DNA of 64,000 nucleotides from Paracoccaceae bacterium (GCA_020832725.1 JAFIEC010000418.1:5518-69517); one strand, 5' to 3'. Counted from the first letter of the stretch, positions 7,186 to 60,640 are shown. The notes: generated by a model from the letters alone, not told the origin. A program made the numbers and translations.

Positions 7186-7188
7186 GCG

Positions 7189-7884: not shown

Positions 7885-7921
7885 CCGCAGGGGCGCAGGC
7901 ACATGATGCTGCCCGGTCCCG

Positions 7922-8623: not shown

Positions 8624-9327
8624 TCCTTTGGCGCCTCTATCGTTGCGGTCGAATGGCCTTTTTCGCGTGCTTCTGTCGGCTTGCCTTCGCTTGCGAAGAT
8701 CACATGTTCCGCCCCATGCGTGACCAGATCGCCCATGCGCTCGATATTCTTGGCGATGAAGACGTAATGCAGGCAGGGCGTGATGTTGCGCGGGTCTTCC
8801 ATCATATGGGTGATGAACTCGCGAAACAGGGCATTGGTCATGTCATCGACCTCTATATCACGGCTGATGACATCGCGTGCAAGCGCGGCATCCCCGCGGG
8901 CAAAGGCATCCAGCATGTCCTTCAGCATCTGGCCCACCAGGCGCGCCTGGCGGCGTAGCGCCCCGGCGGCCCCTTCGATCATCGGTGCGGCAACCAGCAC
9001 CGGCACGCGCTTGGCCATGTTCTTGGCATAGTCGCCCAGACGCTCCATATCGCCAGTCATCTTCATCACCGCGACTGCCGAGCGCAGGTCATCGGCCTGC
9101 GGCTGGCGCAGGGCAAGCAGACGCACCACTTGGGCGTTGATCTCTTCTTCCGCCTTGTCGATGCGCTTGTCGCCCTCGACGACTTGCGCGGCCAGATCCT
9201 GATCGCGCGTTTCAAGCGCGCGCGAGGCATCAAGGATCGCGGTCTCTACCTGCCCGCCCATCGTCAGTACGGACAGGCGGATGGCTTCGAGGTCGCGGTC
9301 AAATGCGGAAAGTGTGTGCGGTTTCAT
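8620..9327 (-). CDS. phoU: Phosphate signalling complex protein PhoU
   Basis: 235 aa with two PhoU repeats (E..I....D..ID; DMERLGDYAKNMAKR and NIERMGDLVTHGAEH). Confidence 0.9.
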   Translation of the reverse strand: MKPHTLSAFDRDLEAIRLSVLTMGGQVETAILDASRALETRDQDLAAQVVEGDKRIDKAEEEINAQVVRLLALRQPQADDLRSAVAVMKMTGDMERLGDYAKNMAKRVPVLVAAPMIEGAAGALRRQARLVGQMLKDMLDAFARGDAALARDVISRDIEVDDMTNALFREFITHMMEDPRNITPCLHYVFIAKNIERMGDLVTHGAEHVIFASEGKPTEAREKGHSTATIEAPKE

Positions 9328-9349
9328 GGTTCAGTTCCTTTCAATCTGA

Positions 9350-10381
9350 TCAGTTGCAGGGCAGCACGGCGTCAAAGCTTGATCCTTCGCCGGGGGCCGA
9401 ACGGATGATAAGTCGCCCGCGATGGCGGCTGAGAATGTGTTTCACGATGGCCAGCCCCAGCCCGGTGCCACCACTGTCGCGCGACCGGGCCTTGTCGATA
9501 CGAAAGAACCTTTCGGTCAGGCGTGGAATGAAGATCGGGTCGAAGCCTTCGCCATAGTCGCGGATGCTGACGCGCAAGACTGCGCCGTCAAAGCCCGGCA
9601 TCGCCGGGATATGGGTTGCAGTGATGTCGATGCACCCGCCGCTGCCACCATATTTCAGGCCATTTTCGATCAGGTTGTGAAAGACCTGAACAAGCTGGTC
9701 ATAATCGCCGGGGATCTCGGGCAGGGTGTCGGGAATGTCGAAATTCACCGTGACCGAGGCTGCGTCGATCTGTGGGCGCAGCGCCGCCAGAGTGGCCTTT
9801 AGCACCGTGTCGATCAAAACCGGGGTGCGGGGGCGGATCTTTTCGACCGCCTCTACCCGGCTGAGTGATAGCAGATCGGCAACAAGCCCGCTCATGCGCG
9901 CGGCCTGTTCTGCCATGATCGACAGGAATTCCGCGCGCGCAGCCGGATCATCGCCAGCCGGACCTTGCAAGGTTTCGACGAAGCCTGCCAGAACGGTCAG
10001 GGGCGAGCGCAGTTCATGGCTGACATTCGCGACAAAGTCGCGTCGCTGCGCTTCTGCGGCTTCCATATCCGAAATGTCAGAGAGCGACAGGACAAATGTC
10101 TCCGGCGCGGCTTGCCGCGCGACAACCTTCCATACTGTTTCGCGGCTGCTGGTATGCGCGATGAAGCAGGCGCTGTCCTCTGGCCGGCCCGCCAGAACCC
10201 GGTCCAGCATCGCGGCAACGCCGGGCTGGCGCAGATGCGCCCTGATCTGCGCCCCCGCGATCTGGGCGCCGAACAATTCGATTGCAGCCGGGTTCGCGGC
10301 CTGCACCAAACCGTCATGATTGACCAGCATCACCGGCTGTGGAAGTGCGGCGATCATGGCGGGAAAAAGATCGCTATTCAT
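9350..10381 (-). CDS. phoR: Phosphate regulon sensor histidine kinase PhoR; soluble PAS-HisKA-HATPase form with no TM segment seen
   Basis: H-box FVANVSHELRSPLT, N-box HNLIENGLKY, G-boxes RDYGEGF and GGTGLGLAIVKH. ATG 10381 (MNSDLFPAMIAAL) is preferred over the longer ORF. Lies upstream of phoU-phoB. Confidence 0.8.
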   Translation of the reverse strand: MNSDLFPAMIAALPQPVMLVNHDGLVQAANPAAIELFGAQIAGAQIRAHLRQPGVAAMLDRVLAGRPEDSACFIAHTSSRETVWKVVARQAAPETFVLSLSDISDMEAAEAQRRDFVANVSHELRSPLTVLAGFVETLQGPAGDDPAARAEFLSIMAEQAARMSGLVADLLSLSRVEAVEKIRPRTPVLIDTVLKATLAALRPQIDAASVTVNFDIPDTLPEIPGDYDQLVQVFHNLIENGLKYGGSGGCIDITATHIPAMPGFDGAVLRVSIRDYGEGFDPIFIPRLTERFFRIDKARSRDSGGTGLGLAIVKHILSRHRGRLIIRSAPGEGSSFDAVLPCN

Positions 10382-10555
10382 CCGATACCTGTCCAGTCCC
10401 TGCCCGCGCAGGCACCGGCGCCGAATGCTGCCAAATCCATCCTGACCCCGCATGAGGTGCCGATCTTGCTGCTGAGGGTTTAAGATGGTTGCGCATCAGA
10501 CGCTCTTGGGCCGGGTGCCCGGTTCGGGCAGGTGAATGACTAGTAGCGCCAGCAT

Positions 10556-10573
10556 ATGACATGTTTATGACAA
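10556..10573 (-). promoter_or_regulatory. Pho-box-like direct repeat upstream of phoR
   Basis: The minus strand reads TTGTCAT-AAAC-ATGTCAT: two 7-bp repeats at 11-bp periodicity, close to the enterobacterial CTGTCAT-N4-CTGTCAT Pho box. About 175 bp upstream of the phoR ATG. Confidence 0.5.
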
Positions 10574-10883
10574 TTCCACAGCGCAAGGCACCAACGCTTG
10601 TTGGCGGGTGCCCTTGCCGCCGTGCCACCATTCGCGGCGCTTGGCGCGGATATGTGTTATGTGGCCGGATACGCCCGCGCCAGCCCGGCACGAACATCGC
10701 GCAGTCAGAACGGCCCCGAACCATGTTCGGAAAGGTCCGGGCGGTCCGCCAGGCTACAGTTACAGATATCACGAAACACGGCGCCCCCAGCCAGCAAGGC
10801 GCCCGAGCAGAAGTAGGGGGATGTCGTCCAGAGGGAGGGGGCGCAACTGGACAACACAAAGCATGGCGGGCTGAAAAGACAAT

Positions 10884-10973
10884 TGGCGGAGAGAGCGGGA
10901 TTCGAACCCGCGAGACGGTTTCCCGCCTACACGCTTTCCAGGCGTGCGCCTTCGACCACTCGGCCACCTCTCC
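10884..10973 (-). tRNA. tRNA-Ser (anticodon GGA), 90 nt, CCA encoded
   Basis: Manual fold of the reverse complement GGAGAGGTGGCCGAGTGGTCGAAGGCGCACGCCTGGAAAGCGTGTAGGCGGGAAACCGTCTCGCGGGTTCGAATCCCGCTCTCTCCGCCA. It has a 7-bp acceptor stem, anticodon stem CACGC/GCGTG with loop CTGGAAA, a long variable arm, and T-arm GCGGG-TTCGAAT-CCCGC. Confidence 0.9.
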
Positions 10974-11067
10974 GGCTGTGTCCGTCTAGCCCAGTTCCCT
11001 AACCCTATGCAAGCAACGAATGTCGGCTTGCCCGCGTGTCCTGAAACCGTGCCGATGCAGCGGCAGA

Positions 11068-14812
<3,745 letters not shown>

Positions 14813-14816
<4 letters not shown>

Positions 14817-16252
14817 GATGGGTTCAGCATATCCCTGTAAAGCGCTGCATAGGCGGCAGCGGACTGATCCCAGCCCACAGGATGGGCCATCGCGTTGCGC
14901 TGCAACTTAAGCCAGAGTTTCGGGCGCGCGTAAAGATCGCAAAGCTTGCCCAGCGCGTTTGCCAGTGCCTGCGCCGATACGGGGTGGAACTGCACACCCG
15001 TAGCCACGGGAACTCGGGCAAGCGTTGCAGGGGTTGCCGGGATCACCGTGTCGGCCAGCCCGCCGGTCAGGGCGACCAGCGGCAGCGCGCCATAGCGCAA
15101 CCCGTAAAGCTGCGTCAGCCCGCAAGGTTCAAACCGCGACGGCACGAGGATGGCATCCGCCCCGGCCATGATCCGGTGCGAGAGCGGCTCGTCATAGCCG
15201 ATATGCACGGCGATATTCGCGTGCTTTTCAGCAGCGCGGCGAAACGCGCCCTCCAGCGCTGCCTCGCCGGTTCCCAGCACCACCAGCTGACCATCGCGTT
15301 CCAGCAGGGCGGGCATGGCATCAAGCAGCAAATCCAGCCCCTTCTGGTCGGTCAGCCGCGAAATCACCGCACAAAGCGGCCCATCGGCCATTGGCAGGCC
15401 GAATTCCTGTTGCAGCGCGTCCTTGTTGGCCGCCTTGCCGCGCGGTGTCTTGTAGGGGCGGATATGCGGGTCGGTTTCGGGCGACCAGACGCGCCGGTCG
15501 ATCCCGTTCAATATGCCGCACAGCGCCGCGGCGCGCTGGCGCAGCACCCCGTCAAGCCCCATGCCGAATTCAGGGGTTGTCAGTTCTTCGGCATAGCTGG
15601 GCGACACTGTGGTCAGACGGTCGGCGTATATCAGCCCTGCCTTCAGCGCCGAGATCTGGCCCCAATATTCGAACCCTTCGGGCGTGAAATCTGCCTTGCG
15701 CAGGTGCAAGGCGCCCAGCTTGCTGGCCGGGGCCAGCCCCTGAAAGGCAATATTGTGGATGGTCAGCACGCTGCGCACGCGCCCGGCGGCTTCACTTTGC
15801 GCGATGTAATAGGGCGCAAGCCCGGCCTGCCAGTCATGGCCATGCACGATGTCGGGCCGCCAGTCCTGCAGCAGGCCACTGGCGATTTCGCTGGCCACCC
15901 AGGACAGCGCGGCAAAGCGTTCGGGATTGTCGGGCCAGTCCTTGCCGGAATCACTTGCGTAAAGCCCCGCGCCCCGGTCGAACAGATGCGGGGCATCCAC
16001 CACCAAAAGCGACAGCCGGTCATGGCGCGCAGCCAGCAGCCTTGCGCTGCCCCCGAAACAGTCGGGCAGCCGCGCCACGGTCTCGGCCTCGTCCGATAGT
16101 GCCTGCATCACCGCCGGATATCCCGGCATCAGCAGGCGCATTTCAATCTCATGCGCGGCCAGCGCAGCGGGCAGGGCACCGGCCACATCGGCCAGCCCGC
16201 CGGTCTTGACCAGCGGCACCGCTTCGGGCGTGACCGACAAAACCCGTATCAT
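14813..16252 (-). CDS. glgA: Glycogen synthase GlgA
   Basis: N-terminal [13 protein letters not shown] motif, 479 aa GT5 architecture, 4-nt overlaps with glgC and glgX. Confidence 0.9.
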
Positions 16253-17508
16253 TGCGCCTCCTGCCAGCGATCCACCATTGGCTGGGTGATCAGCGTGACC
16301 CCGCGTTCGCTGACGCGAAAGAACTTCGCATCCTCTTCCGGGTCTTCGCCTGCCACCAGCCCGCGCGGGATGACCACCCCGCGATCGACCACCGCCTTGC
16401 GCAGCCGCGCCGAGCGGTTGATCACCACATCGGGCAGGATCACCGAATGATCGAGCACGGCATAGGAATTCGTATGTACTTGCGTGAACAGCAGCGAATT
16501 ACGTACTTCGGTGCCAGAGATGATGCAGCCCCCCGCCACCATCGACGAAATCGCCACCCCGCGCCGGTCCTTTTCATCATGGATGAATTTTGCCGGTGGC
16601 ACGGTTTCCGAATAGGTCCAGATCGGCCAGTTGCGGTCCCACAGATCCAGCGTTGGCGTGAAATCGGTCATGTCGATATTGGCCTGCCAGAAGGCATCTA
16701 TCGTGCCGACATCGCGCCAGTAAGCCTCTGCCCCCGGTGCGCGCACGCAAGAATCGTCGAAACGATGCGCCACGGCCTTGCCGTATTTCACGATATCAGG
16801 GATCAGGTCATTGCCGAAATCATGGCTGGAACCGGGGTCGGCGGCATCTTTCAGCAGAAGATCGCGCAGGAACGGCCAGGAAAAGACATATATCCCCATC
16901 GAGGCCAGCGCCTTTGTCGGGTCATCGGGCATGGCAGGCGGGTCGGCAGGTTTTTCCAGAAAGGATGTGATGTTGCTGTCGCGGTCCACGGCCATGACGC
17001 CAAAGGCGCTGGCCTCTTCGCGCGGGACGGTCAGGCAGCCCACGGTCACATCGGCCCCGGTTTCGACATGCTGGCGCAGCATCACCTCGTAATCCATCTT
17101 GTAGATGTGATCGCCCGCAAGAATGACGATGTAGTCAATGTCGTAACTGTCCACGATGTCGATATTCTGCGCCACTGCATCCGCTGTGCCGCGATACCAC
17201 ATCGATTCATTAACCCGCTGCGAGGCCGGCAGGATGTCCAGAAACTCGTTGCGTTCTGCGCGAAAGAAGTTCCAGCCGCGCTGGCAATGGCGGATCAGCG
17301 AATGCGCCTTGTATTGCGTGGCCAGCGCCATGCGGCGAATGCCGGAATTCAGCGCATTGGACAGTGCGAAGTCGATGATGCGCGTCTTGCCCCCGAAATA
17401 CACAGCAGGCTTCACGCGCTTGTCGGTCAACTCTTTCAGCCGTGATCCGCGCCCCCCTGCCAGCACGAAGGCCATTGAGCGATGCGTAAGTCTTTTGGTG
17501 CCTGCCAT
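16249..17508 (-). CDS. glgC: Glucose-1-phosphate adenylyltransferase GlgC
   Basis: ATG 17508 is preceded by GGAGGAG. Motifs [31 protein letters not shown] and WYRGTADAV. Confidence 0.9.
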
Positions 17509-17543
17509 ACTCTTCTCCTCCCAAAGCGTTGGCGTTCCCGAAT

Positions 17544-19760
17544 TCACTGGTGCAGTTGAAGTATCATGCATGAAAGCGGCGGTAGCGTCATCTGCAGCGA
17601 ATCCGGGCAGCCATCATGGGCGGTGCGCTGGCTGTCCAGCCCGCCCAGATTGCCGCGATTGCCGCCGCCATAAGTCGCGGCATCGGTATTCATGATCTCG
17701 GCCCAATGCCCCGGCGCGGGCACGCCCACGCGCCAGCCCGTCCGTTCGACCGGCGTGAAATTGCAGATCACCAGAACCGGGGCATCGCCGGGATCACCGA
17801 AACGGGCGAAGGCGGTGACGGATTCGGCCGGTGCATTGGCGATCCAGCGAAACCCGCTGGCGTCGCAATCGCGCCGGAACAATGCAGGCGTGCAACGATA
17901 GAGGTGGTTCAGATCGCGGATCAGCCGCTGCACACCCGCATGGCGCGCATCCCCCAGCGCCGCCCAGTCAAGGCTGGCGTCATGGTTCCATTCATGGCTT
18001 TGGGCGAATTCACACCCCATGAACAAAAGCTTCTTGCCGGGATGGCCCCACATGAAGCCGTAATAGGCGCGCAGATTGGCGAATTTTTCCCAGTCATTTC
18101 CAGGCATCTTTTCCAGCATCGCGCCCTTGCCATGCACGACCTCGTCATGGCTGATCGGCAGGATGAAGTTCTCCGAAAAGGCGTAATGAATCCCGAAGGT
18201 CAGCAGGTGGTGGTGATACTTCCGGTTGACCGGGTCCTCGGCCATGTAGCGGAGTGTGTCGTTCATCCAGCCCATGTTCCACTTGAACCCGAAACCCAGT
18301 CCCCCGGCGTGCGCGGGCGCCGAGACGCCGGGAAAGGCGGTGCTTTCCTCGGCCACGGTCATGATCCCCGGCACCTCGCCATAGGCCAGCCGGTTCGCGG
18401 CCCGCAGGAAGGCGATGGCTTCCAGATTCTCGCGCCCGCCGTGGGCGTTCGGCACCCACTCTCCCGGTTTCCGCGAATAGTCGCGATAGAGCATCGAGGC
18501 CACGGCATCCACGCGCAGCCCGTCCACATGGTATTCCTCCAGCCAGTAGAGCGCGTTGGAGGTCAGGAAATTCGCCACCTCGCGCCGCCCGTAGTTGTAG
18601 ATCAGCGTGTTCCAGTCCGGGTGATAGCCCTCGCGCGGGTCGGCGTGTTCGTACAGGTGGTTGCCGTCGAACCGCGCCAGCCCGTGCGCATCGGCCGGGA
18701 AATGCCCCGGCACCCAGTCCAGCAGCACGCCGATCCCGCGCCGGTGGGCGGCGTCGATCAGGTCGCGGAACTCGTGCGGGGGGCCGTGGCGCACCGTGGG
18801 CGCATAAAGCCCGACCGGCTGATACCCCCAGGAGCCATCGAACGGGTATTCGGAAACCGGCATCAATTCGATATGCGTGAAGCCCATGTCGGCGACATAA
18901 TGCACCAGTTCGTCCGCCGCTTCGATCCAGGACAGGCGCCGCCCGTCCTTGCGCCGCCATGACCCCAGGTGCACCTCGTAGACGGAAATCGGCGCGCGGC
19001 GGTCGTTGCGCGCGGCGCGGGTGTCCATCCAGTCGCTGTCCTTCCAGCCATAGCCGCGAATGTCGCGGATGACCGAGGCATTGGCGGGCGGGTGCTCCGA
19101 GCCGAAGCCCAGCGGGTCGGCCTTCAGCGGTTGCAGCGCGCCATCGGAACCGGTGATCTGGTACTTGTAGGGCACCCCCTCGCCCAGCCCGGGGATGAAC
19201 AGCTCCCATATCCCGGTGGTTCCGCGCGGGCGCATGGGGTGGCGCCGCCCGTCCCAGAAGTTGAAGCCGCCAACCACCGAAACCGCCTGCGCACCCGGCG
19301 CCCAGACGGCAAAGGCGGTGCCGTGGACGCCTTCATGTTCCATCACCCGTGCGCCCAGGATGTGCCACAGCCGCTTGTGCGTGCCTTCGGAGAACAGGTG
19401 TTCGTCCAGATCGCCCAGCACCGGGCCGAAGCGATAGGGGTCATCGAATTCCCAGGCCGCGCCCCCGCGTGCGGCGCGCAGCCGGTAGGGTGCGTCCGGC
19501 GTGATCTGCCCGGCCCATACGCCCTCGGCCACCTGTGTGAGCGGCACCTCTGCATCGGCCAGCGCCATGACCGTGTCGGCTCCGGGGACATAGACCACCA
19601 ATTGCCCCGCGATCCCGCCCGAACGCGGCCCCAGCAGCGCAAAGGGATCGGCAAGCCGCGCGCTTGCGAGCGCTAACATCTTCTCCGGAGCAATCTCGAA
19701 AGGCGGCGGGGTCATGAACATATCTTCGCGCATATCCCCGAGATTACGGGCTTCAAGCAC
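17544..19760 (-). CDS. glgB: 1,4-alpha-glucan branching enzyme GlgB
   Basis: 738-aa ORF with GH13 motifs ([42 protein letters not shown]). Start is uncertain: GTG 19760, or ATG 19733/19715. Confidence 0.9.
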
Positions 19761-19772
19761 GATTACAAGCGT

Positions 19773-20651
19773 TCAATCCGCCTGCGCGCGGGCCGTGTCG
19801 GCTTCGGCATCGAGGATCGCGCGCAGGCCGGTGCGGTAATCCGGATAGGCCAGCTTGACGCCCAGTTCCGTGCGGATGCGGTCATTGCGCACGCGTTTGC
19901 TTTCGGCATAGAAGCTGCGCGCCATGGGGCTCAGGTCCGCGTCCTCGAATGCGACCCGTGGCGGTGGCGGCATGTCCAGCAGCGCGGCGGCCTGCGCCAG
20001 CACGTCCTGCGGCGGGGCGGGGTCATCGTCGCAGACGTTATAGACCGCGCCGGGCCGCGGCCGGTCGATCGAGGCTTCCAGCACGGCGGCGATATCGGCG
20101 ACATGGATGCGTGAAAACACCTGTCCGGGCTTGATGATCGCGCGGGCGGTGCCGTTGCGGACCTTCTCGAACGGGCCGCGCCCGGGGCCGTAGATGCCCG
20201 CCAGCCGGAAGATGTGGAGCGGCAGGCCGTAGCGCGCCGCCAGCGCCCGCCAGCCGGTTTCGGCCGAGACGCGCGCGCGCCCGCGGGCCGTGGCGGGGGT
20301 CAGGGGCGTCTCCTCGTCGACCCAGCCGCCGCCGTGATCGCCATAGACGCCGGTGGTGGAAAGATACCCCAGCCAGCGCAGATGCGTGGCCTGCGCCAGC
20401 GCTTCGCTTTCGGCGGCGAGCACCGGATCGCCCCCTTCGGCGGGGGCCACGGAGCTGAGCACATGCGTCGCGCGCGACAGCGGCAGCGGCGTGCCGGGCC
20501 AGATCAGCGGCTCGATCCCTGCGGCCTGCAGCTTCGCCGCCTTGTCCGCGCTGCGTGTGGTGCCGATCACCTGCCAGCCGCGCGCGCGCAGCCGCCGCGC
20601 CAGCGCCTGCGCCGAATACCCGTGTCCGATGGACAGAAGCGTTCCCGTCAT
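19773..20651 (-). CDS. NAD(P)-binding Rossmann-fold protein (extended SDR / epimerase-like), function unknown
   Basis: 292 aa. N-terminal dinucleotide-binding-like segment LLSIGHGYSAQALARRL. High GC3 coding frame. Family assignment from sequence impression only. Confidence 0.6.
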   Translation of the reverse strand: MTGTLLSIGHGYSAQALARRLRARGWQVIGTTRSADKAAKLQAAGIEPLIWPGTPLPLSRATHVLSSVAPAEGGDPVLAAESEALAQATHLRWLGYLSTTGVYGDHGGGWVDEETPLTPATARGRARVSAETGWRALAARYGLPLHIFRLAGIYGPGRGPFEKVRNGTARAIIKPGQVFSRIHVADIAAVLEASIDRPRPGAVYNVCDDDPAPPQDVLAQAAALLDMPPPPRVAFEDADLSPMARSFYAESKRVRNDRIRTELGVKLAYPDYRTGLRAILDAEADTARAQAD

Positions 20652-24788: not shown

Positions 24789-24838
24789 GCGCCCTCGGGC
24801 CGCGCCCACCCACCCGCCCCTGCACGCCCCGAGGGCGC
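24789..24838 (+). repeat. GC-rich hairpin with invariant loop CCCACCCACCCGCCCC (family copy 1)
   Basis: Arms GCGCCCTCGGGCCGCGC / GCACGCCCCGAGGGCGC (2 mismatches) flank the exact 16-mer at 24805-24820. The same 16-mer recurs at 52485, 60247 and, reversed, at 51342. Confidence 0.8.
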
Positions 24839-24864
24839 CTGCCCCTGCCGGGGGCAGGGGCAGG
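24838..24864 (+). repeat. Perfect 12-bp-stem hairpin in the mrpD1-mrpD2 spacer
   Basis: CCTGCCCCTGCC-GGG-GGCAGGGGCAGG read directly from the sequence. It abuts the family hairpin. Confidence 0.75.
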
Positions 24865-24913
24865 GGGCGGCCTGTGAAGACGGGGTGCGCCGCGATCCTT
24901 GGCGGGCGGCGCC

Positions 24914-35674: not shown

Positions 35675-36145
35675 TCAGTTCTGTCCGTCGAAGCGCGGCC
35701 CGTCGGTGTCGGTCACCAGCCCGATGTTGTTGAACCCGCCCGAGTTGAGCGCCCCCATCACCTGCACCACGCGCTCATACGGGATGGAGCCGTCGGCGCG
35801 CAGGAAGATGCGGTTGTCGCGCCGCTCGGCGGCCACCGCGCGCAGTTGCGGGATCAGGTCCCCGGCGGTGATTTCCGTGGTCATGATCATCACCCGCCCG
35901 TCAGCGGTCAGCGTGACCGACAGCGGCTCTTCCTGCTCGGCGGGCAGCGCCCCGGCCGAGGTGCGCGGCAATTCCACCGGCACGCCCACGGTCAGCATGG
36001 GCGCGGCCACCATGAAGATGATCAGCAACACCAGCATCACGTCCACAAAGGGCGTGACGTTGATCTCCGACATGCGCCCGCCGCGCGCCGCGCGGCGCCG
36101 ACCGCCGCCCTTGCCGCCATTGCGCCGGATGACCTGCCCCCCCAT
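35675..36145 (-). CDS. tolR: TolR (ExbD family)
   Basis: EINVTPFVDVMLVLLIIFMV motif, 156 aa, follows tolQ. Confidence 0.9.
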   Translation of the reverse strand: MGGQVIRRNGGKGGGRRRAARGGRMSEINVTPFVDVMLVLLIIFMVAAPMLTVGVPVELPRTSAGALPAEQEEPLSVTLTADGRVMIMTTEITAGDLIPQLRAVAAERRDNRIFLRADGSIPYERVVQVMGALNSGGFNNIGLVTDTDGPRFDGQN

Positions 36146-36148
36146 GGT

Positions 36149-36859
36149 TCAGGCCGCGTCCAGCTGGCGCGACAGGATCGTGTTGAATTCGTCCGCGAAG
36201 GCTTCATAGCCCGAGACGATGGCCTCGGAATCCTCGGTCAGCTTGTTGTAGAAGATGGTCGCGGGGATGGCGGCCAGCAGCCCCAGCCCGGTTGCCAGCA
36301 GCGCCTCGGCGATGCCCGGCGCCACCACGGCCAGGTTGGTGGACTGCGCAAGGGCGATTTCCTCGAAGGCGTGCTTGATGCCCCAGACAGTGCCGAACAG
36401 CCCGATGAAGGGCGAGGCCGACCCGACCGAGGCCAGAAACGTCAGCCCGCCCTGCAGCTCGCGCGCTTCCTTGGTGATGGCCACATCCATGGACCGGTCG
36501 ATGCGTTGCACCGCGCCGGGGATCAGCGCGCCGTCATGGCGGTGGCTGCGCCGCCATTCGGCCATCCCGGCGGCAAAGACGCGCGCAGGCGGCGTGGGCG
36601 GTTCGGGGCCGATCTGGTCGTAAAGCTCGTCCAGCGGTTCGCCCGACCAGAAGGCGGCGTCGAACTGGTCGGCCTCGCTGCGGGCGCGGCGGTAGCGGAT
36701 CAGCTTCTGGATGATGATCCCCCAGGACCAGAACGAGGCCAGGATCAGGATGATCATGACCAGTTGCACGGTCACCGTGGCGCGCGCGAACAGCGCGACC
36801 AGCGAAAAGTCGATATCTTGCGTCGCCGCAAGGGCGGTCTGTTCCATGGGCCTGCTCAC
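36149..36859 (-). CDS. tolQ: TolQ (MotA/ExbB family)
   Basis: 236 aa. LASVGSASPFIGLFGTVWGI motif. Confidence 0.9.
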   Translation of the reverse strand: MSRPMEQTALAATQDIDFSLVALFARATVTVQLVMIILILASFWSWGIIIQKLIRYRRARSEADQFDAAFWSGEPLDELYDQIGPEPPTPPARVFAAGMAEWRRSHRHDGALIPGAVQRIDRSMDVAITKEARELQGGLTFLASVGSASPFIGLFGTVWGIKHAFEEIALAQSTNLAVVAPGIAEALLATGLGLLAAIPATIFYNKLTEDSEAIVSGYEAFADEFNTILSRQLDAA

Positions 36860-36958
36860 TCAAGAAAGGCCACCCTTGCACCGGGCGGCTCTGTTTGGCG
36901 GCGAATCTACAGGTTTTCGGCCCTCAAAGCCAACAGATCGACCGGTGATGCAACAAAT

Positions 36959-37357
36959 TTATCCGTGATCGATGCAAAGGGCGCGCAGCGCGGCGGGAAA
37001 CCGCCGGGGGCGGGCGCCCGCGTCCAGGCAGACCAGCACCACGCGGGCGTCGAACAGGAGCGCATCGCCGCGCCGCACCTGCTGGCGCAGGGTCAGCCGC
37101 GCAGGGGTCGCGGCCTCTGCCTCGGTGGTGACGCTCAGCAGATCGTCGAACCGGGCCGGGGCCAGATAGTCGGCCTCTACCCGCCGGACGGCGAAGACCA
37201 GACCTTGTTCGGCCTTCAGCGCCGCCTGATCGACCCCCAGCGCCCGCACCCACTCGCTGCGCGCGCGTTCGATGAACTTCAGGTAATTCGCGTAATAGAC
37301 GATGCCCGCAAGGTCGGTGTCCTCGTAATAGACGCGGACGGAGTGGGTGTGGGTCAT
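36959..37357 (-). CDS. ybgC: Tol-Pal-associated acyl-CoA thioesterase YbgC (4HBT hotdog fold)
   Basis: 132 aa. N-terminus VRVYYEDTDLAGIVYYANYLKFIERAR. First gene of the tol cluster. Confidence 0.85.
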   Translation of the reverse strand: MTHTHSVRVYYEDTDLAGIVYYANYLKFIERARSEWVRALGVDQAALKAEQGLVFAVRRVEADYLAPARFDDLLSVTTEAEAATPARLTLRQQVRRGDALLFDARVVLVCLDAGARPRRFPAALRALCIDHG

Positions 37358-37507
37358 TTGGTGTCCTTCCGTCCTTGTGCGCCGTCTGGGGGGCGTGCGG
37401 TGCGCGACCCTCTAGCATCGGCGCGCGACCGGGGCCACGGGGAAGGCGGGCGGAACGGGGCGGGGGGGCAGGCGGGATCCTACCGGGAGTCATGTTGGAC
37501 GGGGATC

Positions 37508-39187
37508 ATCCGAACACCTGATAAGGACAACCATATGAAAAAAAGTTGTGTTTATCGAATATTCAAGTAATTCCAGAGGCCTGGGTGTATACACACGCCC
37601 AAGCTAGGCTTCAAAAACTCTTCCCCGCGATGAAACCAATAATATCGCCTCGCGTTGAAAGAGTCATCGTAATTTCCAATAACACCGTAATGAAACAAGT
37701 CGTCAACGAGTGTGGAGGTATTCGCAAATCCAAACTTCGCTATGACTGATCTATCGAATTCATCAAATGACTTGTAAAGTCTCTTGTTTATATTCTCCCT
37801 AAGTGTTTTAGCGATGGCATTCCCATGTCTTACGCTTATCTCATCCTTGATTTCATTCATCGCTCGCCTTGAATACTCGTTAAGCGCATTCTTTATCTCA
37901 TCTTCCCCTATTCTGGGTGAATCTGGGTTCTCGTCTGCTATCGAGTTGAGTAGCTGCACAACATCACGAGGTCGTCCCCAAGTGTTTATTTTAATAAAAT
38001 TCTCAAGTAGAATGGTCTTCTTTCCGAAATTAATTTTGGGTTCAACAAAATCAGCAAAATTGATTACTTCTAGATGTTTGGAGTGAATGACTTTCTGGAT
38101 AAGAAGTCGAAACAGAAGTGTCTCGCTCCCATCACTCATGTCCCATTCTAGCTTAACGCTTTTGCCGTCCACGAGTTTTCCGATTTCGGAATCCATGTCA
38201 TTAAGCAGATTCCGAATCTCTGGTCTGAGCGCACATACAATGTGAAAATCAAGATTGTGCTTAATAAAGAAATTATTTAATTCACGAGCTGATCTCAGTA
38301 TGTCACGGACCATCGCTGCCCGAACCTTAACCTCGTCATCTGCTGCATCAAGTCGCGACAAAACTAGCTCGTCAACATACAAGTAAAACAAATGATCTTG
38401 ATGGTGACGCCTCAATAGCTCGAGCGCTGCACTGATATACTCACTCAAGGGAACTTCGCTCCCCCCTTTGTATTTGGCGAAGTCAAATCCAACAGACGCT
38501 GAAATGTCAAACATCTCTGCAGATATCTCAACTGAGGCTGATTTCAAAACACCTTCGAAAATAGACGAGAGTCGACTCCTCTTTCCAAGGACGAATTTCG
38601 TAAATTGTGAAGTGAATGAGTTCTCACTCAGCTCTTCAGCAATTTTTACCAAAAAAGTTCTAAGCCAAATTTCTCGAAAATCATAATTCAAAAAAATGTT
38701 CCTAGAATTAACAACTCCCAGCATATCTATTTTTTGGGTTCTCGCGGCGCTATTGTAGTCTTTTGGCTTGACATCGGAGTGAAACGAAAAAAACTTTGAT
38801 ATGTATCCCTTTTCTTTTAGTTTTTCCGACAAGTAAAACTGAACAGCCGTTTTTCCTGAGCCTTTTCGTCCAACAATAATGTATTTTCTCTTGTTGTTGA
38901 GTGAATTCATCGAAAACGAGGTCGGCAGAATGAAAGTCGAGTGGAAATACTCGGGAAAGTTGTTGCCTTCGTCAATCGCCTCCACGTCGCCAAAGTAACA
39001 ATCAGACAGCATCTCTTATCCATCCATCGTCAGCACATTGATAAACGCCGCCTGCGGGATATCGACCTTCCCGAACTGGCGCTTCTTCTTCGTACCCGTT
39101 TTCTGATTCTCGAGCAATGTCTTCTTGCACGCCATGTCCCCGCCGTTGGCTGCCTGGATCGGTATTTCAAACATGTTGCGGGGGATC
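37508..39187. other. Low-GC islet (foreign composition) inserted between yqgE and the ybgC-tol promoter region; no recombinase seen
   Basis: There is an abrupt switch near 37510 from GC-rich flank to AT-rich DNA: by eye about 35-40% G+C over 37.55-39.01 kb, intermediate over 39.02-39.19 kb. Imperfect direct repeats lie at 37491-37507 and 39172-39187. Confidence 0.6.
37552..39012 (-). CDS. Orphan soluble P-loop NTPase (486 aa), family unassigned; candidate defence/abortive-infection ATPase
   Basis: Uninterrupted 486-codon ORF in AT-rich DNA. Walker A GRKGSGKT (aa 48-55), Walker B YLYVDE (aa 210-215), Arg-rich TWGRPRD (aa 344-350). No TM segments and no recognisable nuclease, protease or TIR motif. 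Confidence 0.85.
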   Translation of the reverse strand: MLSDCYFGDVEAIDEGNNFPEYFHSTFILPTSFSMNSLNNKRKYIIVGRKGSGKTAVQFYLSEKLKEKGYISKFFSFHSDVKPKDYNSAARTQKIDMLGVVNSRNIFLNYDFREIWLRTFLVKIAEELSENSFTSQFTKFVLGKRSRLSSIFEGVLKSASVEISAEMFDISASVGFDFAKYKGGSEVPLSEYISAALELLRRHHQDHLFYLYVDELVLSRLDAADDEVKVRAAMVRDILRSARELNNFFIKHNLDFHIVCALRPEIRNLLNDMDSEIGKLVDGKSVKLEWDMSDGSETLLFRLLIQKVIHSKHLEVINFADFVEPKINFGKKTILLENFIKINTWGRPRDVVQLLNSIADENPDSPRIGEDEIKNALNEYSRRAMNEIKDEISVRHGNAIAKTLRENINKRLYKSFDEFDRSVIAKFGFANTSTLVDDLFHYGVIGNYDDSFNARRYYWFHRGEEFLKPSLGVCIHPGLWNYLNIR

Positions 39188-39210
39188 GGCGCCTTGATGT
39201 TTTCGCACAT
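39016..39210 (-). CDS. Small basic hypothetical protein (64 aa, or 52 aa from ATG 39174), stop 3 nt before the NTPase start
   Basis: ORF with moderately high GC3. TAA at 39016-39018, then GAG, then the NTPase ATG at 39012. Lys-rich centre [20 protein letters not shown]. No homology recognised. Confidence 0.4.
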
Positions 39211-39229
39211 GCCGCCGCCCCGCCACGCC

Positions 39230-39811
39230 TCAGGCCCGCCCCGCCGCGCCCGACAGCATCACCGGGTCCACGCCCAGCGCGCGCAGCGCGGCCTCCCATT
39301 GCGCGGGGGGCGCGGTGTCGAAGACCAGCGCGGCAGTGGCGGCGACGCTCAGCCAGCCGTTGGCAAGGATCTCCTCCTCCAGTTGCCCCGGCGCCCAGCC
39401 CGCATAGCCCAGCATCATCCGCGCCCGCGCCGGGCCGCGCCCGTGCAGCATGTCCTCGAGGATATCAAGCGTGGCGCTCATGGCGATGCCCTCGGCCACC
39501 GGCAGGGTGGTGGCACCGCCATCATACTCGGCGCTGTGCAGCACGAATCCGCGGCCATGCTCCACCGGACCGCCGAAATGGACCGCTGCATCGGGTGCGC
39601 TGTGCTGCGCGTCCTCGGCGACCAGTTCCAGATGCGCCATCAGCGCGCCCAGCCGCAGGTCCGGCAGCGGCTTGTTGACGATCAGCCCCATGGCGCCCTG
39701 CGGCGAGTGCGAGCAGATACAGACCACGCTGCGCGCGAATCGCATGTCGGGCATGCCGGGCATGGCGATCAGCAGCTTGCCGGTCAGGTCCAGGTGATCC
39801 GAGGCGCTCAT
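39230..39811 (-). CDS. yqgE: YqgE/AlgH family protein (UPF0301)
   Basis: 193 aa from ATG 39811. [40 protein letters not shown] and [14 protein letters not shown] are characteristic. Confidence 0.85.
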
Positions 39812-39978
39812 GCGCTGACCATGCCGCAGCCGCGAAGGCTTGCCAAGCCATTCCCGGCGCCTGGGCGGGTGGTTTCTGCACCTTTGGGTTGTGTCATGCG
39901 ATGCAGCCGGGCCACAACGCCGCCGGTCTCCGAAACGTGACTTCCCTTTCGCCGCATTACAGCGGAATCCTCGACCGC

Positions 39979-40893
39979 ATGACCCGAGAACCGAACCCCG
40001 GACCTGCGCGGCTGCGCGCCCTTGCCCGAGCGCTGCGCCTCTCACCCGGCCCGTCCTCACCCGGCCTGACAGTGCGCCCCGCCTTGCGCGCGCTCGCCGC
40101 AGCCGCGATCATGGCCGTTGCGTCGATTGTGCCCGTCGATGCCCAGGGGCGCGGGGCCGAGCAGGTCTCGGCCGAGTTCCGCACGGGCTGGGTGCGCGAC
40201 GATGGCCGCCGGATGGCCGCGCTGCATCTGCGGCTGGCACCGGGCTGGATGACCTATTGGCGGGTCCCCGGCGAAGGCGGTCTGGCATTGCGCATGGACT
40301 GGTCCGGGTCCGAGAACCTGGCCGGGGTGGACAAGCACTGGCCCAGTCCGCGCGTGTTCGTGCAGAACGGCTATTACAACATCGGTTACCGCGACGAACT
40401 GGTGCTGCCCATCGAACTGACCCCCGTCGATCCCGCGCGCCCCATGGTCTTTGTCGCCGCGATCACACTGGGGGTGTGCCGCGATGTCTGCATTCCGGTG
40501 GACCTGCGCCTGCGTGCCGATCTGAGCGCACCCGGCCGCCCCGACGCGCTGATCGAGGCCGCCCTGTCGCAAGCGCCGCGCCCGGCGCTGGACGCAGGGC
40601 TGCGCGCCGCGCGGTGCGGGCTGGAACCGGCCGAGCGCAACGGGATGCGCCTGCGCGCGGAACTGGACCTGCCGGAAACCGGCGCCAACGAACGCGTGAT
40701 CGTCGAACTGCCGGGCCAGGAGGCGCGGGTGCGCGATCTGGGCAGCCTGCGCAACGGCGATCTGCTGCGCGGCGAGGCGCTGATCACGCCGCCACGGCGC
40801 GGCACCTTGAGCGTGAACCGCTCGGATATCCGCCTGACGGTGCTGAGCGATGCGGGCGCCGTGCAACACACCGGCTGCACGGCGGCGCCCTGA
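39979..40893 (+). CDS. Periplasmic protein with a DsbD N-terminal-like (thiol:disulfide interchange) domain
   Basis: Signal-like region, GWMTYWRVPGEGG and LGVCRDVCIP motifs typical of DsbD/ScsB N-domain-like proteins. Start ATG 39979 chosen. Confidence 0.65.
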   Translation: MTREPNPGPARLRALARALRLSPGPSSPGLTVRPALRALAAAAIMAVASIVPVDAQGRGAEQVSAEFRTGWVRDDGRRMAALHLRLAPGWMTYWRVPGEGGLALRMDWSGSENLAGVDKHWPSPRVFVQNGYYNIGYRDELVLPIELTPVDPARPMVFVAAITLGVCRDVCIPVDLRLRADLSAPGRPDALIEAALSQAPRPALDAGLRAARCGLEPAERNGMRLRAELDLPETGANERVIVELPGQEARVRDLGSLRNGDLLRGEALITPPRRGTLSVNRSDIRLTVLSDAGAVQHTGCTAAP

Positions 40894-43752: not shown

Positions 43753-43802
43753 CGCCGTTTCCCTGTCTTGGTGCGGACCGGGCCGATGCCTGCCGCTCTG
43801 GT

Positions 43803-46774: not shown

Positions 46775-46851
46775 AAAAGCGCCCCCTCAGCGCCCCGCCC
46801 GCCCGCCCATGGCGCTTCGGGGGCGCTGCCCGGCGCAAAGGCGCGCCGGGC
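46775..46851 (-). terminator. Two GC hairpins followed by a T-tract downstream of the SDR remnant
   Basis: The minus strand reads GCCCGGCGC-GCCTTT-GCGCCGGGC, then AGCGCCCCC...GGGGGCGCT followed by TTTTGC. Confidence 0.5.
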
Positions 46852-51190: not shown

Positions 51191-51322
51191 CGGTACGCGT
51201 GCGCTGCCTTGCTCTGCGCGCGCGCCCCGTTTGCCCTGCGCGCGCCCGCGCTGCCCGAACGCGGCGTCCTGCGATGTGCGGCCGTGACGGTTCCGCCCGC
51301 CCGGCGCGCCTGCGCGCCGGGC

Positions 51323-51375
51323 GGCGCCCGCGAAGGGTGCCGGGGCGGGTGGGTGGGGCACCCTGAGCGGGCGCC
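51323..51375 (-). repeat. GC-rich hairpin with the invariant loop (family copy, reverse orientation)
   Basis: The plus strand carries GGGGCGGGTGGGTGGG (51342-51357) between arms GGCGCCCGCGAAGGGTGCC / GGCACCCTGAGCGGGCGCC. Lies downstream of the DMT transporter gene. Confidence 0.8.
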
Positions 51376-52467: not shown

Positions 52468-52518
52468 AGCGCCCGCCCGCCGGACCCACCCACCCGCCCC
52501 GTCCGCCGGGCGGGCGCT
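52468..52518 (+). repeat. GC-rich hairpin with the invariant loop (family copy in the sseB leader / divergent promoter region)
   Basis: Arms AGCGCCCGCCCGCCGGAC / GTCCGCCGGGCGGGCGCT flank the exact 16-mer at 52485-52500. Confidence 0.8.
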
Positions 52519-60229: not shown

Positions 60230-60280
60230 GCGCCTGCGGGCCGTGCCCCACCCACCCGCCCCAGCACGCCCCGCAGGCGC
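60230..60280 (+). repeat. GC-rich hairpin with the invariant loop (family copy downstream of metG)
   Basis: Arms GCGCCTGCGGGCCGTGC / GCACGCCCCGCAGGCGC (1 mismatch) flank the exact 16-mer at 60247-60262. Confidence 0.8.
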
Positions 60281-60582: not shown

Positions 60583-60640
60583 CGCGGCGCCCTCGGGGCG
60601 TGCGGGGGCGGGGGAGCGGGCACGCCCCGCAGGCGCTTTT
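60583..60640 (+). terminator. Rho-independent-terminator-like hairpin after the 85-aa ORF
   Basis: GGGGCGTGC...GCACGCCCC stem extended by GCGCC/GGCGC, followed by TTTT (60637-60640). The 3' arm matches the arm sequence of the hairpin family. Confidence 0.6.

What the first reader, a model, noticed from the sequence alone, without database searches (positions are those of the whole stretch)
24789..24838. Dispersed hairpin family with covarying GC stems and an invariant loop whose complement is a canonical G-quadruplex motif
The exact 16-mer CCCACCCACCCGCCCC occurs four times in 64 kb: 24805-24820, 52485-52500, 60247-60262, and reverse-complemented at 51342-51357. Each copy is the loop of a 17-19 bp GC-rich inverted repeat. 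The arms differ between copies but stay complementary: GCGCCCTCGGG.../...CCCGAGGGCGC, GCGCCTGCGGG.../...CCCGCAGGCGC, AGCGCCCGCCCGCCGGAC/GTCCGCCGGGCGGGCGCT, GGCGCCCGC..GGGTGCC/GGCACCC..GCGGGCGC. This covariation suggests selection for structure. The complementary strand of the loop, GGGGCGGGTGGGTGGG, has four G-tracts with 1-nt spacers, a textbook parallel G-quadruplex former; the C-strand could form an i-motif. All four copies are intergenic. In all four, the C-rich strand is the sense strand of the adjacent gene: after mrpD1, after metG, after the DMT gene, and in the sseB leader. That places the G4 motif on the template strand. This is more specific than an ordinary REP or terminator hairpin.
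Basis: seen in the sequence. Interest (0 to 1): 0.65.

Follow-up and report, generated by a model that had tools for sequence, protein, structure and literature searches.

The report
Dispersed GC hairpins capped by G4-motif loop
The four hairpins are real members of an apparently undescribed family of repeated, terminator-like palindromes found next to gene ends across the Rhodobacteraceae. Their tip carries a C-tract/G-tract (G-quadruplex-type) module that is gained, lost and inverted between close relatives, so it behaves more like a REP-type mobile repeat than a fixed regulatory site.

Summary
The 16-mer occurs exactly four times at the stated coordinates; 0 of 100 shuffles reach four. Each copy caps a 14-18 bp GC stem.

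The window holds two more, degenerate members: 46778-46827 and 60587-60636. In public genomes the same 16-mer sits in a long stem in 12 of 15 Rhodobacteraceae hits and in 0 of 110 hits from other taxa.

Most exact-loop copies lie 0-55 nt after a stop codon with the C-rich strand as sense strand. This is a tendency, not a rule: L028, L140 and most variant-loop copies are inverted. In the window's clade the inverted copies carry a T-run, like intrinsic terminators.

The elements turn over quickly:
- One entered a formerly overlapping mrpD-mrpD junction inside an operon.
- At two orthologous sites the same stem carries the module in the window but a 3-4 nt loop in a 92-95% relative.
- Loops drift at spacer positions while keeping four C/G tracts.
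- Stem mismatches are strongly strand-asymmetric.

There is no Rfam match and I found no paper describing the family. My best reading is a REP-like, terminator-derived dispersed repeat with a G4-motif cap. G4 or i-motif folding and any RNA 3' ends remain untested.

The parts
24789..24838 (+). Family member 1 (stem subfamily A). Arms GCGCCCTCGGGCCGCGC / GCACGCCCCGAGGGCGC with a C.C and a C.A mismatch; loop is the exact 16-mer 24805-24820. It lies 39 nt after the stop of the first mrpD-like gene and about 75 nt before the next, inside the mrp operon.
   Evidence: (I10)
24836..24877 (+). Second hairpin (CTGCCCCTGCC GG GGCAGGGGCAG) and G-run tract directly after member 1. It is also present in relative L280, so it belongs to the same inserted intergenic block.
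46778..46827 (+). Variant member (subfamily B). Stem AGCGCCCCC-TC-AGCGC / GCGCT-TC-GGGGGCGCT; loop CCCGCCCGCCCGCCCA on the + strand. The neighbouring genes are on the - strand, so the G-rich loop is in the sense RNA. It lies 34 nt after the SDR gene stop (46862) and is followed on the - strand by TTTTG.
51297..51324 (.). Neighbour hairpin CCGCCCGGCGCGC ct GCGCGCCGGGCGG abutting member 2. The same pair of hairpins recurs at an unrelated locus (L140), so the repeated unit can be about 95 nt.
   Evidence: (I20)
51323..51375 (-). Family member 2 (subfamily B). Stem GGCGCCCGC-TC-AGGGTGC(C) / (G)GCACCCT-TC-GCGGGCGCC with a tandem TC/TC mismatch (GA/GA on the G strand); loop is the exact 16-mer. It lies between convergent genes DUF1223 (+, ends 51190) and EamA (-, ends 51412), 37 nt after the EamA stop.
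52468..52518 (+). Family member 3. Stem AGCGCCCGCCCGCCGGA(C) / (G)TCCGCCGGGCGGGCGCT with one C.C mismatch; loop is the exact 16-mer. It lies in the spacer between divergent EamA and SseB-like genes. Relatives L116 and L275 have the same stem with loop AAT(C).
   Evidence: (I3)
60230..60280 (+). Family member 4 (subfamily A). Arms GCGCCTGCGGGCCGTGC / GCACGCCCCGCAGGCGC with one C.C mismatch; loop is the exact 16-mer. It lies 28 nt after the metG stop (60202) and before a conserved 85-aa ORF. It is preceded by GGGAAA.
   Evidence: (I6)
60587..60636 (-). Degenerate member (subfamily A). Arms on the + strand are GCGCCCTCGGGGCGTGC / GCACGCCCCGCAGGCGC; the + strand loop is GGGGGCGGGGGAGCGG. It lies 16 nt after the stop of the 85-aa ORF (+), followed by TTTTC, and 30 nt after the stop of a 113-aa ORF on the - strand.
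   Evidence: (I12)

Best explanation
What it is. These are copies of a Rhodobacteraceae-wide family of dispersed, REP-like palindromic repeats derived from, or doubling as, intrinsic-terminator hairpins. The unit is about 50 nt. It has an imperfect GC-rich stem of 14-19 bp (up to 40 bp) whose base is often GCGCC.../...GGCGC. Its apical module has four C-tracts (C3N)3C3-4, which read as four G-tracts on the other strand. In the window's clade there is also an A-run on the 5' side of the C-rich strand, which is a T-run after the G-rich hairpin.

Shown:
- Whole units exist as stem subfamilies at different loci.
- They appear and disappear at orthologous sites between relatives.
- One entered a compact operon junction.
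- They occur in both orientations.
- Their apical module can be swapped for a short loop.

Inferred mechanism:
- With the G-rich strand as sense strand, the RNA forms a very stable stem followed by U3-4 and acts as an intrinsic terminator.
- With the C-rich strand as sense strand (the commoner state, and the only one seen inside operons), there is no U-run. The RNA hairpin is weaker because its mismatches are C.A, C.C and C.U. Transcription reads through, and the hairpin can serve at most as a barrier to 3'-exonucleases. This resembles REP in malEFG or the puf intercistronic hairpins.
- The orientation bias then reflects purging of terminating insertions upstream of co-transcribed genes.
- The tract module is kept because it belongs to the form that is propagated or selected on the G strand, most simply as a G-quadruplex-capable cap. 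Its exact role is not established.
For: Family and specificity:
- 12 of 15 Rhodobacteraceae genome hits have the 16-mer inside a stem scoring 9 or more. The figure is 0 of 110 for other taxa, 6 of 112 for metagenome hits and 0 of 19 for viral hits.

Stem subfamilies at different loci:
- A: window 1, window 4, window 60587, L251, L266/L268 7407, L275 2531.
- B: window 2, window 46778, L063 (two copies), L140, L266 about 10012.
- C: L070, L223, L188.
- Sources.

Turnover:
- At the mrpD-mrpD junction the genes overlap in L282. The spacer is 46 nt without a hairpin in L281, 142 nt in L280 and 164 nt in the window, the last two with the hairpin.
- The copy-2 and copy-3 sites are occupied only in the closest relatives.
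- L275 has a copy after sseB where the window has none.

Module swap in identical stems:
- Window 16-mer versus L280 GTGT.
- Window 15-mer versus L116/L275 AAT.

Position:
- 14 of 18 exact-loop copies lie within 116 nt after a stop codon with the C strand as sense, 13 of them within 55 nt.

Terminator form in the G orientation:
- TTTTG, TTTTC, TTTCC or TTTGCG follows the G-strand hairpin at window 46778, window 60587, L140 and L275.
- The G strand folds 5-13 kcal/mol better than the C strand.

Read-through in the C orientation:
- One copy lies inside the mrp operon.
- Another lies between betB (Aldedh) and betA (GMC oxidoreductase), where RNA-library contigs span the hairpin.

Structure maintained:
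- There are two compensatory double changes with an identical loop between the Epibacterium and Pseudophaeobacter orthologues, and one T-A to C-G change at the metG site.

Strand asymmetry of mismatches:
- 29 of 32 are C-containing on the C strand, which makes them G.U, G.G or G.A on the G strand. One further polymorphism is of the same kind.

Novelty checks:
- No Rfam family matches.
- The simple scan finds no canonical terminators above chance in this genome region, so hairpins of this kind are plausible substitutes.
Against: - No transcript 3' ends could be mapped. The only metatranscriptomes of the source habitat give under 1x depth.
- No transposase or other mobilising gene was found next to any copy, and there are no target-site duplications, so 'mobile' rests on comparative presence and absence only.
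- Classical REPs conserve the stem and a GTAG-type tag. Here the loop is the most conserved part.
- A 15-17 nt loop is atypical for terminators, and U-runs are short (3-4).
- Some distant members (L148, L188) have the T-run after the C-rich hairpin instead.
- The model does not explain why the exact 16-mer recurs in many genera.
- It does not explain why exact loops are mostly C-sense while variant loops are mostly G-sense.
- The sample is small (about 35 copies). Members outside the window's clade were ascertained by the exact 16-mer.
Confidence: 0.5

Rival explanations
1. This is the first reader's model: a template-strand G-quadruplex device. The loop complement GGGGCGGGTGGGTGGG folds into a parallel G4 on the template strand at gene ends, with cruciform extrusion by the flanking arms helping to expose it. 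It would pause or stop RNA polymerase, or otherwise mark transcript ends at the DNA level.
For: - The four-tract pattern is retained while spacers vary: CCCGCCCGCCCGCCC, CCCACCCACCCACCC, CCCCGCCCTCCCACCC.
- G4Hunter scores 2.2-2.7. ViennaRNA with G4 energies predicts a stem plus an apical three-tier quadruplex for the G strand.
- Exact-loop copies are mostly oriented with the G strand as template, just after stop codons.
- Mismatches are of the kinds tolerated on the G strand.
Against: - Several copies are inverted, including exact-loop ones (L028, L140).
- Copies lie inside operons with downstream genes that must be expressed: mrp and betB-betA with read-through RNA contigs.
- One copy lies between divergent genes.
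- The module is dispensable at two orthologous sites.
- G4 folding in a duplex or hairpin context was not tested. An all-parallel G4 with 1-nt loops puts its two ends on opposite faces, which fits a closed stem poorly (general knowledge).
Confidence: 0.15
2. This model treats the element as an RNA protein-binding motif. In the sense RNA, the stem presents a 16-nt oligo-C loop to a C-specific RNA-binding factor. The most obvious candidate is Rho, which in Rhodobacter capsulatus is a degradosome component. The result would be Rho-dependent termination just after the gene, or targeted decay of the 3' hairpin.
For: - Exact-loop copies are predominantly C-sense and 0-55 nt after stop codons.
- They lack a U-run, so they would need a factor to terminate.
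- Stem mismatches raise C and remove G on the sense strand.
- Loops that are G-sense are the drifted ones.
- Rho is reported as part of the R. capsulatus degradosome (PMC7866481).
- Rho prefers C-rich, G-poor, unstructured RNA (established knowledge).
Against: - Flanks on the C-loop strand are G-rich, not C-rich: 877 G versus 666 C upstream and 913 versus 682 downstream. There is therefore no extended rut-like region.
- 16 nt is far shorter than a usual Rho loading site.
- Operon-internal copies are read through.
- The loop drifts or is lost in close relatives.
- No binding data exist.
Confidence: 0.15
3. This model treats the elements as bona fide REPs mobilised by a RAYT or IS200/IS605-type HUH transposase acting on single-stranded DNA. 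The G-rich strand would be the active strand and the hairpin, with its non-canonical pairs, the recognition structure.
For: - The repeats are short, imperfect, extragenic palindromes with many copies, subfamilies and rapid turnover.
- Non-canonical pairs are conserved on one strand only. The tandem GA/GA is shared by subfamily B copies at different loci, and the mismatch asymmetry follows the element rather than the host gene.
- A composite two-hairpin unit recurs at unrelated loci, as in BIMEs.
Against: - There is no GTAG or CGTC-type tag.
- Stems differ completely between genera while the loop is kept, the reverse of REPs.
- No Y1 transposase appears among the called genes of any fetched locus, though such genes are usually single-copy.
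- The orientation relative to genes is opposite to what lagging-strand-template targeting of the G strand would predict if genes are co-oriented with replication (inference).
Confidence: 0.1
4. This model treats the pattern as chance or low-complexity coincidence in a 67% GC genome. On this view the hairpins are ordinary, unrelated terminators that happen to share a C-rich loop.
For: The 16-mer is low in complexity. It turns up in unrelated contexts in Streptomyces, Chloroflexi and viral contigs.
Against: - 0 of 100 shuffles give four copies.
- Stems flank the 16-mer in 12 of 15 Rhodobacteraceae hits and in 0 of 110 hits from other taxa.
- Stem subfamilies and a shared 5' flank indicate common descent.
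Confidence: 0.01

Closest known systems
REP / BIME elements and REPINs (Enterobacteria, Pseudomonas), associated with RAYT transposases
   Same: - Short GC-rich imperfect palindromes.
- Many copies, strictly extragenic, mostly just after stop codons or between cistrons.
- Lineage-specific subfamilies, composite units and rapid gain and loss.
- Transcribed copies form RNA stem-loops that can protect upstream mRNA.
   Different: - Here the loop is the conserved part across genera and the stem is free to vary.
- There is no GTAG tag.
- No RAYT was seen.
- The loop is a four-tract G4/i-motif-type module.
Intrinsic (Rho-independent) terminators, including bidirectional ones
   Same: - A GC-rich stem immediately downstream of genes.
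- In the G orientation a T-run follows, and A-run/T-run symmetry is seen in L266 7407 (AAAGCGCC...GGCGCTTT).
   Different: - The loop is 15-17 nt instead of 3-8.
- T-runs are only 3-4 long and sit on the strand opposite to the usual sense orientation.
- Copies occur inside operons.
- The loop sequence is shared between copies.
Intercistronic mRNA-stabilising hairpins of the Rhodobacter capsulatus puf operon and the malE-malF REP
   Same: - Stable stem-loops between co-transcribed genes in the same bacterial family.
- They are read through by RNA polymerase and could block 3'-exonucleases. This comparison rests on established knowledge of those systems.
   Different: - Those hairpins are single-locus structures without a shared loop motif.
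- No decay data exist for the present family.
Cuckoo / CcsR (alpha-r14) sRNA hairpins with CCUCCUCCC loops in Alphaproteobacteria
   Same: The architecture has a conserved C-rich loop on variable stems, and it occurs in the same class of bacteria (PMC4615179 appeared).
   Different: - Their loop is an anti-Shine-Dalgarno CCUCC motif, which is absent here.
- They are tandem hairpins in dedicated sRNA genes, not single hairpins after coding genes.
- Rfam models do not match.
Bacterial promoter-proximal G-quadruplexes, e.g. the nasT upstream G4 of Paracoccus denitrificans (PMC5123632)
   Same: It is a canonical G4 motif in an intergenic region of a Rhodobacterales genome. The paper reports 494 predicted G4 motifs in that genome.
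   Different: - Its sequence is different (GGGAGCGGGACGGGGGCCGGG).
- It is a single locus upstream of a gene, not inside a hairpin and not a repeat family.

Membership tests
REP/BIME (RAYT-associated) | Short imperfect palindrome, multi-copy, extragenic | tested here: met
   There are 6 copies in 64 kb, all intergenic. There are 2-3 copies per 8-14 kb in relatives L063 and L266/L267.
REP/BIME (RAYT-associated) | Conserved stem sequence with a GTAG (or CGTC) tag at the foot | tested here: not met
   Stems are unrelated between genera. Only a GCGCC/GGCGC base recurs, with no GTAG. The conserved part is the loop.
REP/BIME (RAYT-associated) | Cognate Y1 (HUH) transposase gene in the genome, often flanked by REPs | tested here: inconclusive
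   No Y1_Tnp family appears among the Pfam calls of the fetched loci or the window ORFs scanned. Only a small part of any genome was seen.
Intrinsic terminator | GC-rich hairpin directly downstream of a gene | tested here: met
Intrinsic terminator | Short loop (3-8 nt) and a U-run of at least 5 within 8 nt after the stem on the sense strand | tested here: not met
   The loop is 15-17 nt. The consensus scan calls none of the copies. C-sense copies have no T-run. G-sense copies have TTTT or TTT only.
Intrinsic terminator | Transcript 3' ends at the U-run | not testable with these tools
   The habitat metatranscriptomes give under 1x depth. Other RNA data are assembled contigs only.
Canonical G-quadruplex motif | Four runs of at least 3 G separated by loops of 1-7 nt | tested here: met
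   The motif is GGGGCGGGTGGGTGGG, with a G4Hunter score of 2.62. Variants keep the pattern except window 60587.
Canonical G-quadruplex motif | Actual K+-dependent folding, in isolation and within the hairpin or duplex | not testable with these tools
   There is only an energy-model prediction for RNA.
Any Rfam family (4227 models) | Covariance-model match | tested here: not met
   The whole-window gathering scan finds only a tRNA. The E-value scan of 60150-60700 finds nothing on the hairpins.
Cuckoo/CcsR sRNA hairpins | CCUCCUCCC anti-SD loop, tandem hairpins in an sRNA gene | tested here: not met
   The loop lacks CUCC. The hairpins are single and follow coding genes.
MITE | Terminal inverted repeats of an IS family plus target-site duplication | tested here: not met
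   Comparison of filled and empty mrp sites shows no duplication or defined ends.

The most novel reading that the evidence does not exclude
The apical (G3N)3G3 / (C3N)3C3 module may be a unit in its own right. A structure-directed process would write it into, and erase it from, the tip of GC-rich hairpins. Alternatively the whole cassette may be a 'mobile terminator' propagated through a G-strand intermediate. Either way the product would be G-quadruplex-capped hairpins that act as polar elements: they terminate or block in one direction and are transparent in the other. This would account for the same 16-mer on unrelated stems in many genera, the module/short-loop alternation in identical stems at two loci, and the one-strand mismatch rule.
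Probability: 0.15. Interest if true: 0.85.

Novelty: new variant of a known kind. Interest (0 to 1): 0.55.

Why it matters
- High-GC Alphaproteobacteria largely lack canonical U-rich terminators, and how their transcripts end is poorly known. A family-wide, orientation-dependent hairpin cassette at gene ends would be a concrete candidate to test.
- The element places the most stable class of G4 motif (1-nt loops), which is usually depleted from genomes, at probably hundreds of defined sites per genome. Natural 'with module' and 'without module' alleles sit in identical stems. That offers a ready-made system for asking whether bacterial G-quadruplexes or oligo-C loops do anything in vivo.
- The strand-asymmetric mismatch pattern gives a sequence-only handle on which strand of a palindromic repeat is the active one.

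Tried and rejected
- RNA evidence for the window organism. The window comes from a soda-lake/bioreactor metagenome lineage. The three metatranscriptomes of that study gave 9-22 reads over 12 kb, which is unusable.
- RNA contigs for the Epibacterium copy. They only show read-through, and the contig breaks at the palindrome are assembly artefacts.
- Searching plasmids (PLSDB) with whole hairpins. This returned only GC-rich noise.
- Literature searches on the 11-mers, on REP plus Rhodobacter, on quadruplex plus Rhodobacterales, on conserved-loop repeats and on G4 plus terminator. None found a description of the family.
- A C>G (rut-like) region around the hairpin. Rejected, because the flanks are G-rich.
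- A replication-strand explanation. The GC skew of the window gives no usable signal.
- Deamination of an exposed strand as the cause of the mismatch asymmetry. Rejected by reasoning, because it predicts the opposite bias.
- Orientation analysis of the Streptomyces and Chloroflexi contexts of the same 16-mer. No pattern emerged, and gene calling was weak.
- A family-wide covariation count. An alignment was made (A5), but I did not use it as evidence. The stems are in two registers and mostly not homologous.
- Polarity of the module gain or loss. It could not be resolved with the available outgroups.

Full report
**1. The observation**

The 16-mer CCCACCCACCCGCCCC occurs at 24805, 52485 and 60247 on the + strand and at 51342 on the - strand. 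No near-matches appear with up to 2 mismatches. Chance expectation is 0.35, and 0 of 100 shuffles reach four.

Each copy is the apex of a GC-rich inverted repeat. The stems are 14-18 bp and carry one or two internal mismatches: C.C in copies 1, 3 and 4, and a tandem TC/TC in copy 2. Both strands fold well as RNA. The G-rich strand is 5-13 kcal/mol more stable.

Pfam confirms the neighbours:
- Copy 1 lies between two Proton_antipo_M (mrpD-like) genes.
- Copy 2 lies between convergent DUF1223 and EamA genes.
- Copy 3 lies between divergent EamA and SseB-like genes.
- Copy 4 lies after methionyl-tRNA synthetase.

**2. More members in the window**

Relaxed searches and the inverted-repeat list reveal two further copies.
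- 60587-60636 has arms homologous to copies 1 and 4. Its left arm is of the copy-1 type and its right arm of the copy-4 type. Its + strand loop is GGGGGCGGGGGAGCGG. It lies 16 nt after the stop of the 85-aa ORF and is followed by TTTTC.
- 46778-46827 has a stem with the same TC/TC mismatch as copy 2 and the loop CCCGCCCGCCCGCCCA. It lies 34 nt after the stop of a short-chain dehydrogenase gene on the - strand. The G-rich loop is therefore in the sense RNA, followed by TTTTG.

**3. The family elsewhere**

An exact-match scan of one genome per species stopped at its 120-locus limit.
- Most hits are in Actinomycetota, Chloroflexota and other groups, and have no flanking complementarity.
- In 12 of 15 occurrences in Rhodobacteraceae genomes the 16-mer is the loop of a 15-30 bp stem, against 0 of 110 in other taxa.
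- 6 of 112 metagenome occurrences and 0 of 19 viral ones have such a stem.

Stems differ completely between genera, but recurring subfamilies exist:
- A: GCGCC[CT/TG]CGGG(C/G)CG(T/C)GC.
- B: (A/G)GCGCCC(G/C)C-TC-...
- C: ...GGGCAACG|loop|CGTTGCCC.

The base of the stem is often GCGCC/GGCGC. In the window's clade the C-rich strand is preceded by G-A(2-6).

No Rfam model matches. Six literature searches found no description of the family.

**4. Position and orientation**

With a GC3-based gene call, 14 of 18 exact-loop copies lie within 116 nt after the stop codon of a gene whose sense strand is the C-rich strand, 13 of them within 55 nt. Stop codons are visible right next to several hairpins.

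Exceptions exist.
- L028 and L140 carry the exact loop in the opposite orientation after a gene.
- Four variant-loop copies are also G-sense: window 46778, window 60587, L266 about 10012 and L275 2531. In the window's clade these have a T-run after the G-rich hairpin.
- C-sense copies have no T-run. The simple terminator scan finds no canonical terminators above chance in this region.

Two C-sense copies are intercistronic.
- Copy 1 lies in the mnhE-F-G-B-C-D-D-D (mrp) operon.
- The Epibacterium/Pseudophaeobacter copy lies between an aldehyde dehydrogenase (betB-like) gene and a GMC oxidoreductase (betA-like) gene. Contigs of an RNA library run straight through that hairpin.

**5. Evolution at orthologous sites**

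(a) The mrpD-mrpD junction. The two genes overlap in L282 (80% protein identity). They are 46 nt apart with no hairpin in L281 (87%), 142 nt apart in L280 (92%) and 164 nt apart in the window. L280 has the same stem as window copy 1, but its loop is GTGT instead of the 16-mer.

(b) The EamA/SseB spacer. L116 and L275 (95% EamA identity) have the stem of copy 3, without its C.C mismatch, and the loop AAT(C). L277 and L278 have no hairpin there. L279 has a different hairpin with the loop CCCACCCACCCACCA.

(c) The metG site. The window has the exact loop. L268 has CCCACCCACCCGACCCC and L266 has CCCAACCACCCGACCCC. L269 has a diverged C-rich stretch plus a new T5 terminator. One T-A to C-G compensatory change is seen in the stem.

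(d) betB-betA. There are two compensatory double changes and an identical loop between two genera. Four related strains carry G1449A, an uncompensated A.C on the C strand.

(e) Other gains and composite units. L275 has a copy after sseB where the window has an 17-nt spacer. L140 shares with window copy 2 not only the hairpin but also the adjacent hairpin, in a different gene context.

The elements are therefore young at individual sites, move or duplicate as units, and can lose or gain the apical module. Neither short loop is a subset of the 16-mer, so simple slippage is excluded. The direction of the change is unresolved.

**6. Strand asymmetry**

Read on the C-loop strand, 29 of 32 stem mismatches retain a C and have lost the partner G: C.A 12, C.C 8 and C.T 9, against G.T 1, A.G 1 and A.A 1. 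On the G strand these are G.U, G.G and G.A, including a tandem GA/GA shared by subfamily B.

The rule follows the loop orientation rather than the direction of the neighbouring gene in three of four G-sense copies. Deamination of an exposed coding or lagging-template strand would give the opposite bias.

The simplest reading is that the structure is selected or propagated on the G strand, either as the terminator-form RNA or as a single-stranded DNA intermediate. Mismatch-specific repair on extruded C-strand hairpins is an alternative. The asymmetry remains unexplained.

**7. G-quadruplex aspect**

The loop complement is a (G3+N1)3G3 motif with a G4Hunter score of 2.62. With G4 energies switched on, ViennaRNA predicts a stem plus an apical three-tier quadruplex for all four G-strand RNAs, at about -76 versus -42 kcal/mol. 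Variant loops change mainly the spacer bases and keep four tracts, although my variant search favoured C/G-rich loops.

The inverted copies, the operon-internal copies and the dispensability of the module argue against an obligatory roadblock on the template strand.

**8. Conclusion**

The finding is real and broader than described. It is a Rhodobacteraceae-wide repeat family and appears to be undescribed.

I rank the explanations as follows:
- A REP-like, terminator-derived dispersed palindrome with a G4-motif cap and orientation-dependent consequences for transcripts (0.5).
- A template-strand G4 device (0.15).
- An oligo-C loop as a protein, possibly Rho, binding site (0.15). The R. capsulatus degradosome contains Rho (PMC7866481).
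- A classical RAYT-mobilised REP (0.1).
- Chance (0.01).

What is shown: family membership, taxonomic restriction, position, turnover, module swapping, mismatch asymmetry and the absence of a known RNA family. What is inferred: terminator activity in the G orientation, read-through or stabiliser behaviour in the C orientation, purifying selection as the cause of the orientation bias, and any role of G4 folding.

Noticed in passing
Loci L009, L023, L037, L057, L093, L123, L146, L157, L186, L192, L211, L214 and others (Chloroflexota/Dehalococcoidia MAGs and metagenome contigs): The same exact 16-mer recurs in a different, longer conserved intergenic element. A short stem (e.g. CTTCTC/GAGAAG) surrounds the 16-mer. 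It is followed by a T-rich spacer, a GGGGGACACCCCC hairpin, and ACCCCCGGCAGAGGG...CCCTCTGCACTCCC. There is no Rfam match. It looks like an undescribed repeat or ncRNA family of Chloroflexota.
   Followed up: partly
Loci L004, L007, L022, L026, L039, L041, L053, L062, L082, L101, L108, L114 (Streptomyces): The 16-mer recurs in a fixed context: ...CCCATCT-CCCACCCACCCGCCCC-CTCCGGGGGC(T/G)TCGGCCCC... This is a C-tract followed by a small GC hairpin, sometimes in inverted pairs (L053). It is probably a Streptomyces-specific dispersed repeat.
   Followed up: no
Loci L230, L242, L246, L254, L257, L264 and L172, L243, L244, L260 (low-GC viral/metagenome contigs): There are two further conserved contexts of the 16-mer in 38-46% GC viral contigs, with no flanking stem: ...GCCAGCTGGGA-16mer-TGGAGTTGCATCC... 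and ...GCTGGTGTGCT-16mer-GCCAGTAAACTTCC... Such a C-rich 16-mer is unexpected in low-GC phage-like DNA.
   Followed up: no
window 60314-60571 (+): An 85-aa ORF lies between the two hairpins after metG. It has 5,892 homologues at E<=1e-5, including Dinoroseobacter shibae Dshi_2625, and no Pfam domain. Some sources label it 'phosphomannomutase', which cannot be right for an 80-aa protein. It is a conserved small protein of unknown function in Rhodobacteraceae.
   Followed up: partly
L266 3744-3790 / L268 3799-3836 versus window 60280: Relatives carry an extra 38-nt block directly after the metG hairpin, with its own small hairpin (CCCGACGC AGG CGTCGGG). The window lacks it. This is another sign that intergenic hairpins of several kinds are inserted and deleted quickly in this clade.
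   Followed up: no
window 1-20000 and 36000-40000: G+C is 61-64% in the first 20 kb and 57% at 36-40 kb, against 70-75% elsewhere. The 36-40 kb dip holds a 486-aa ORF (37552-39012, -) with only weak P-loop/STAND NTPase matches. This may be acquired DNA.
   Followed up: partly
window 43800-43900 versus L170 6238-6334: At the same intergenic site between the same two genes, the window has an unrelated hairpin (GTCCAGCCC TTCA GGGCTGGAC flanked by G6/C6 runs). L170 has a 40-bp-stem family member with the exact 16-mer.
   Followed up: partly
window 52519-52542: A perfect 24-nt palindrome GCCATGTGCCTGCAGGCACATGGC abuts copy 3. It is partly conserved in L116 and L275, and may be an operator in the EamA/SseB divergent promoter region.
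   Followed up: no
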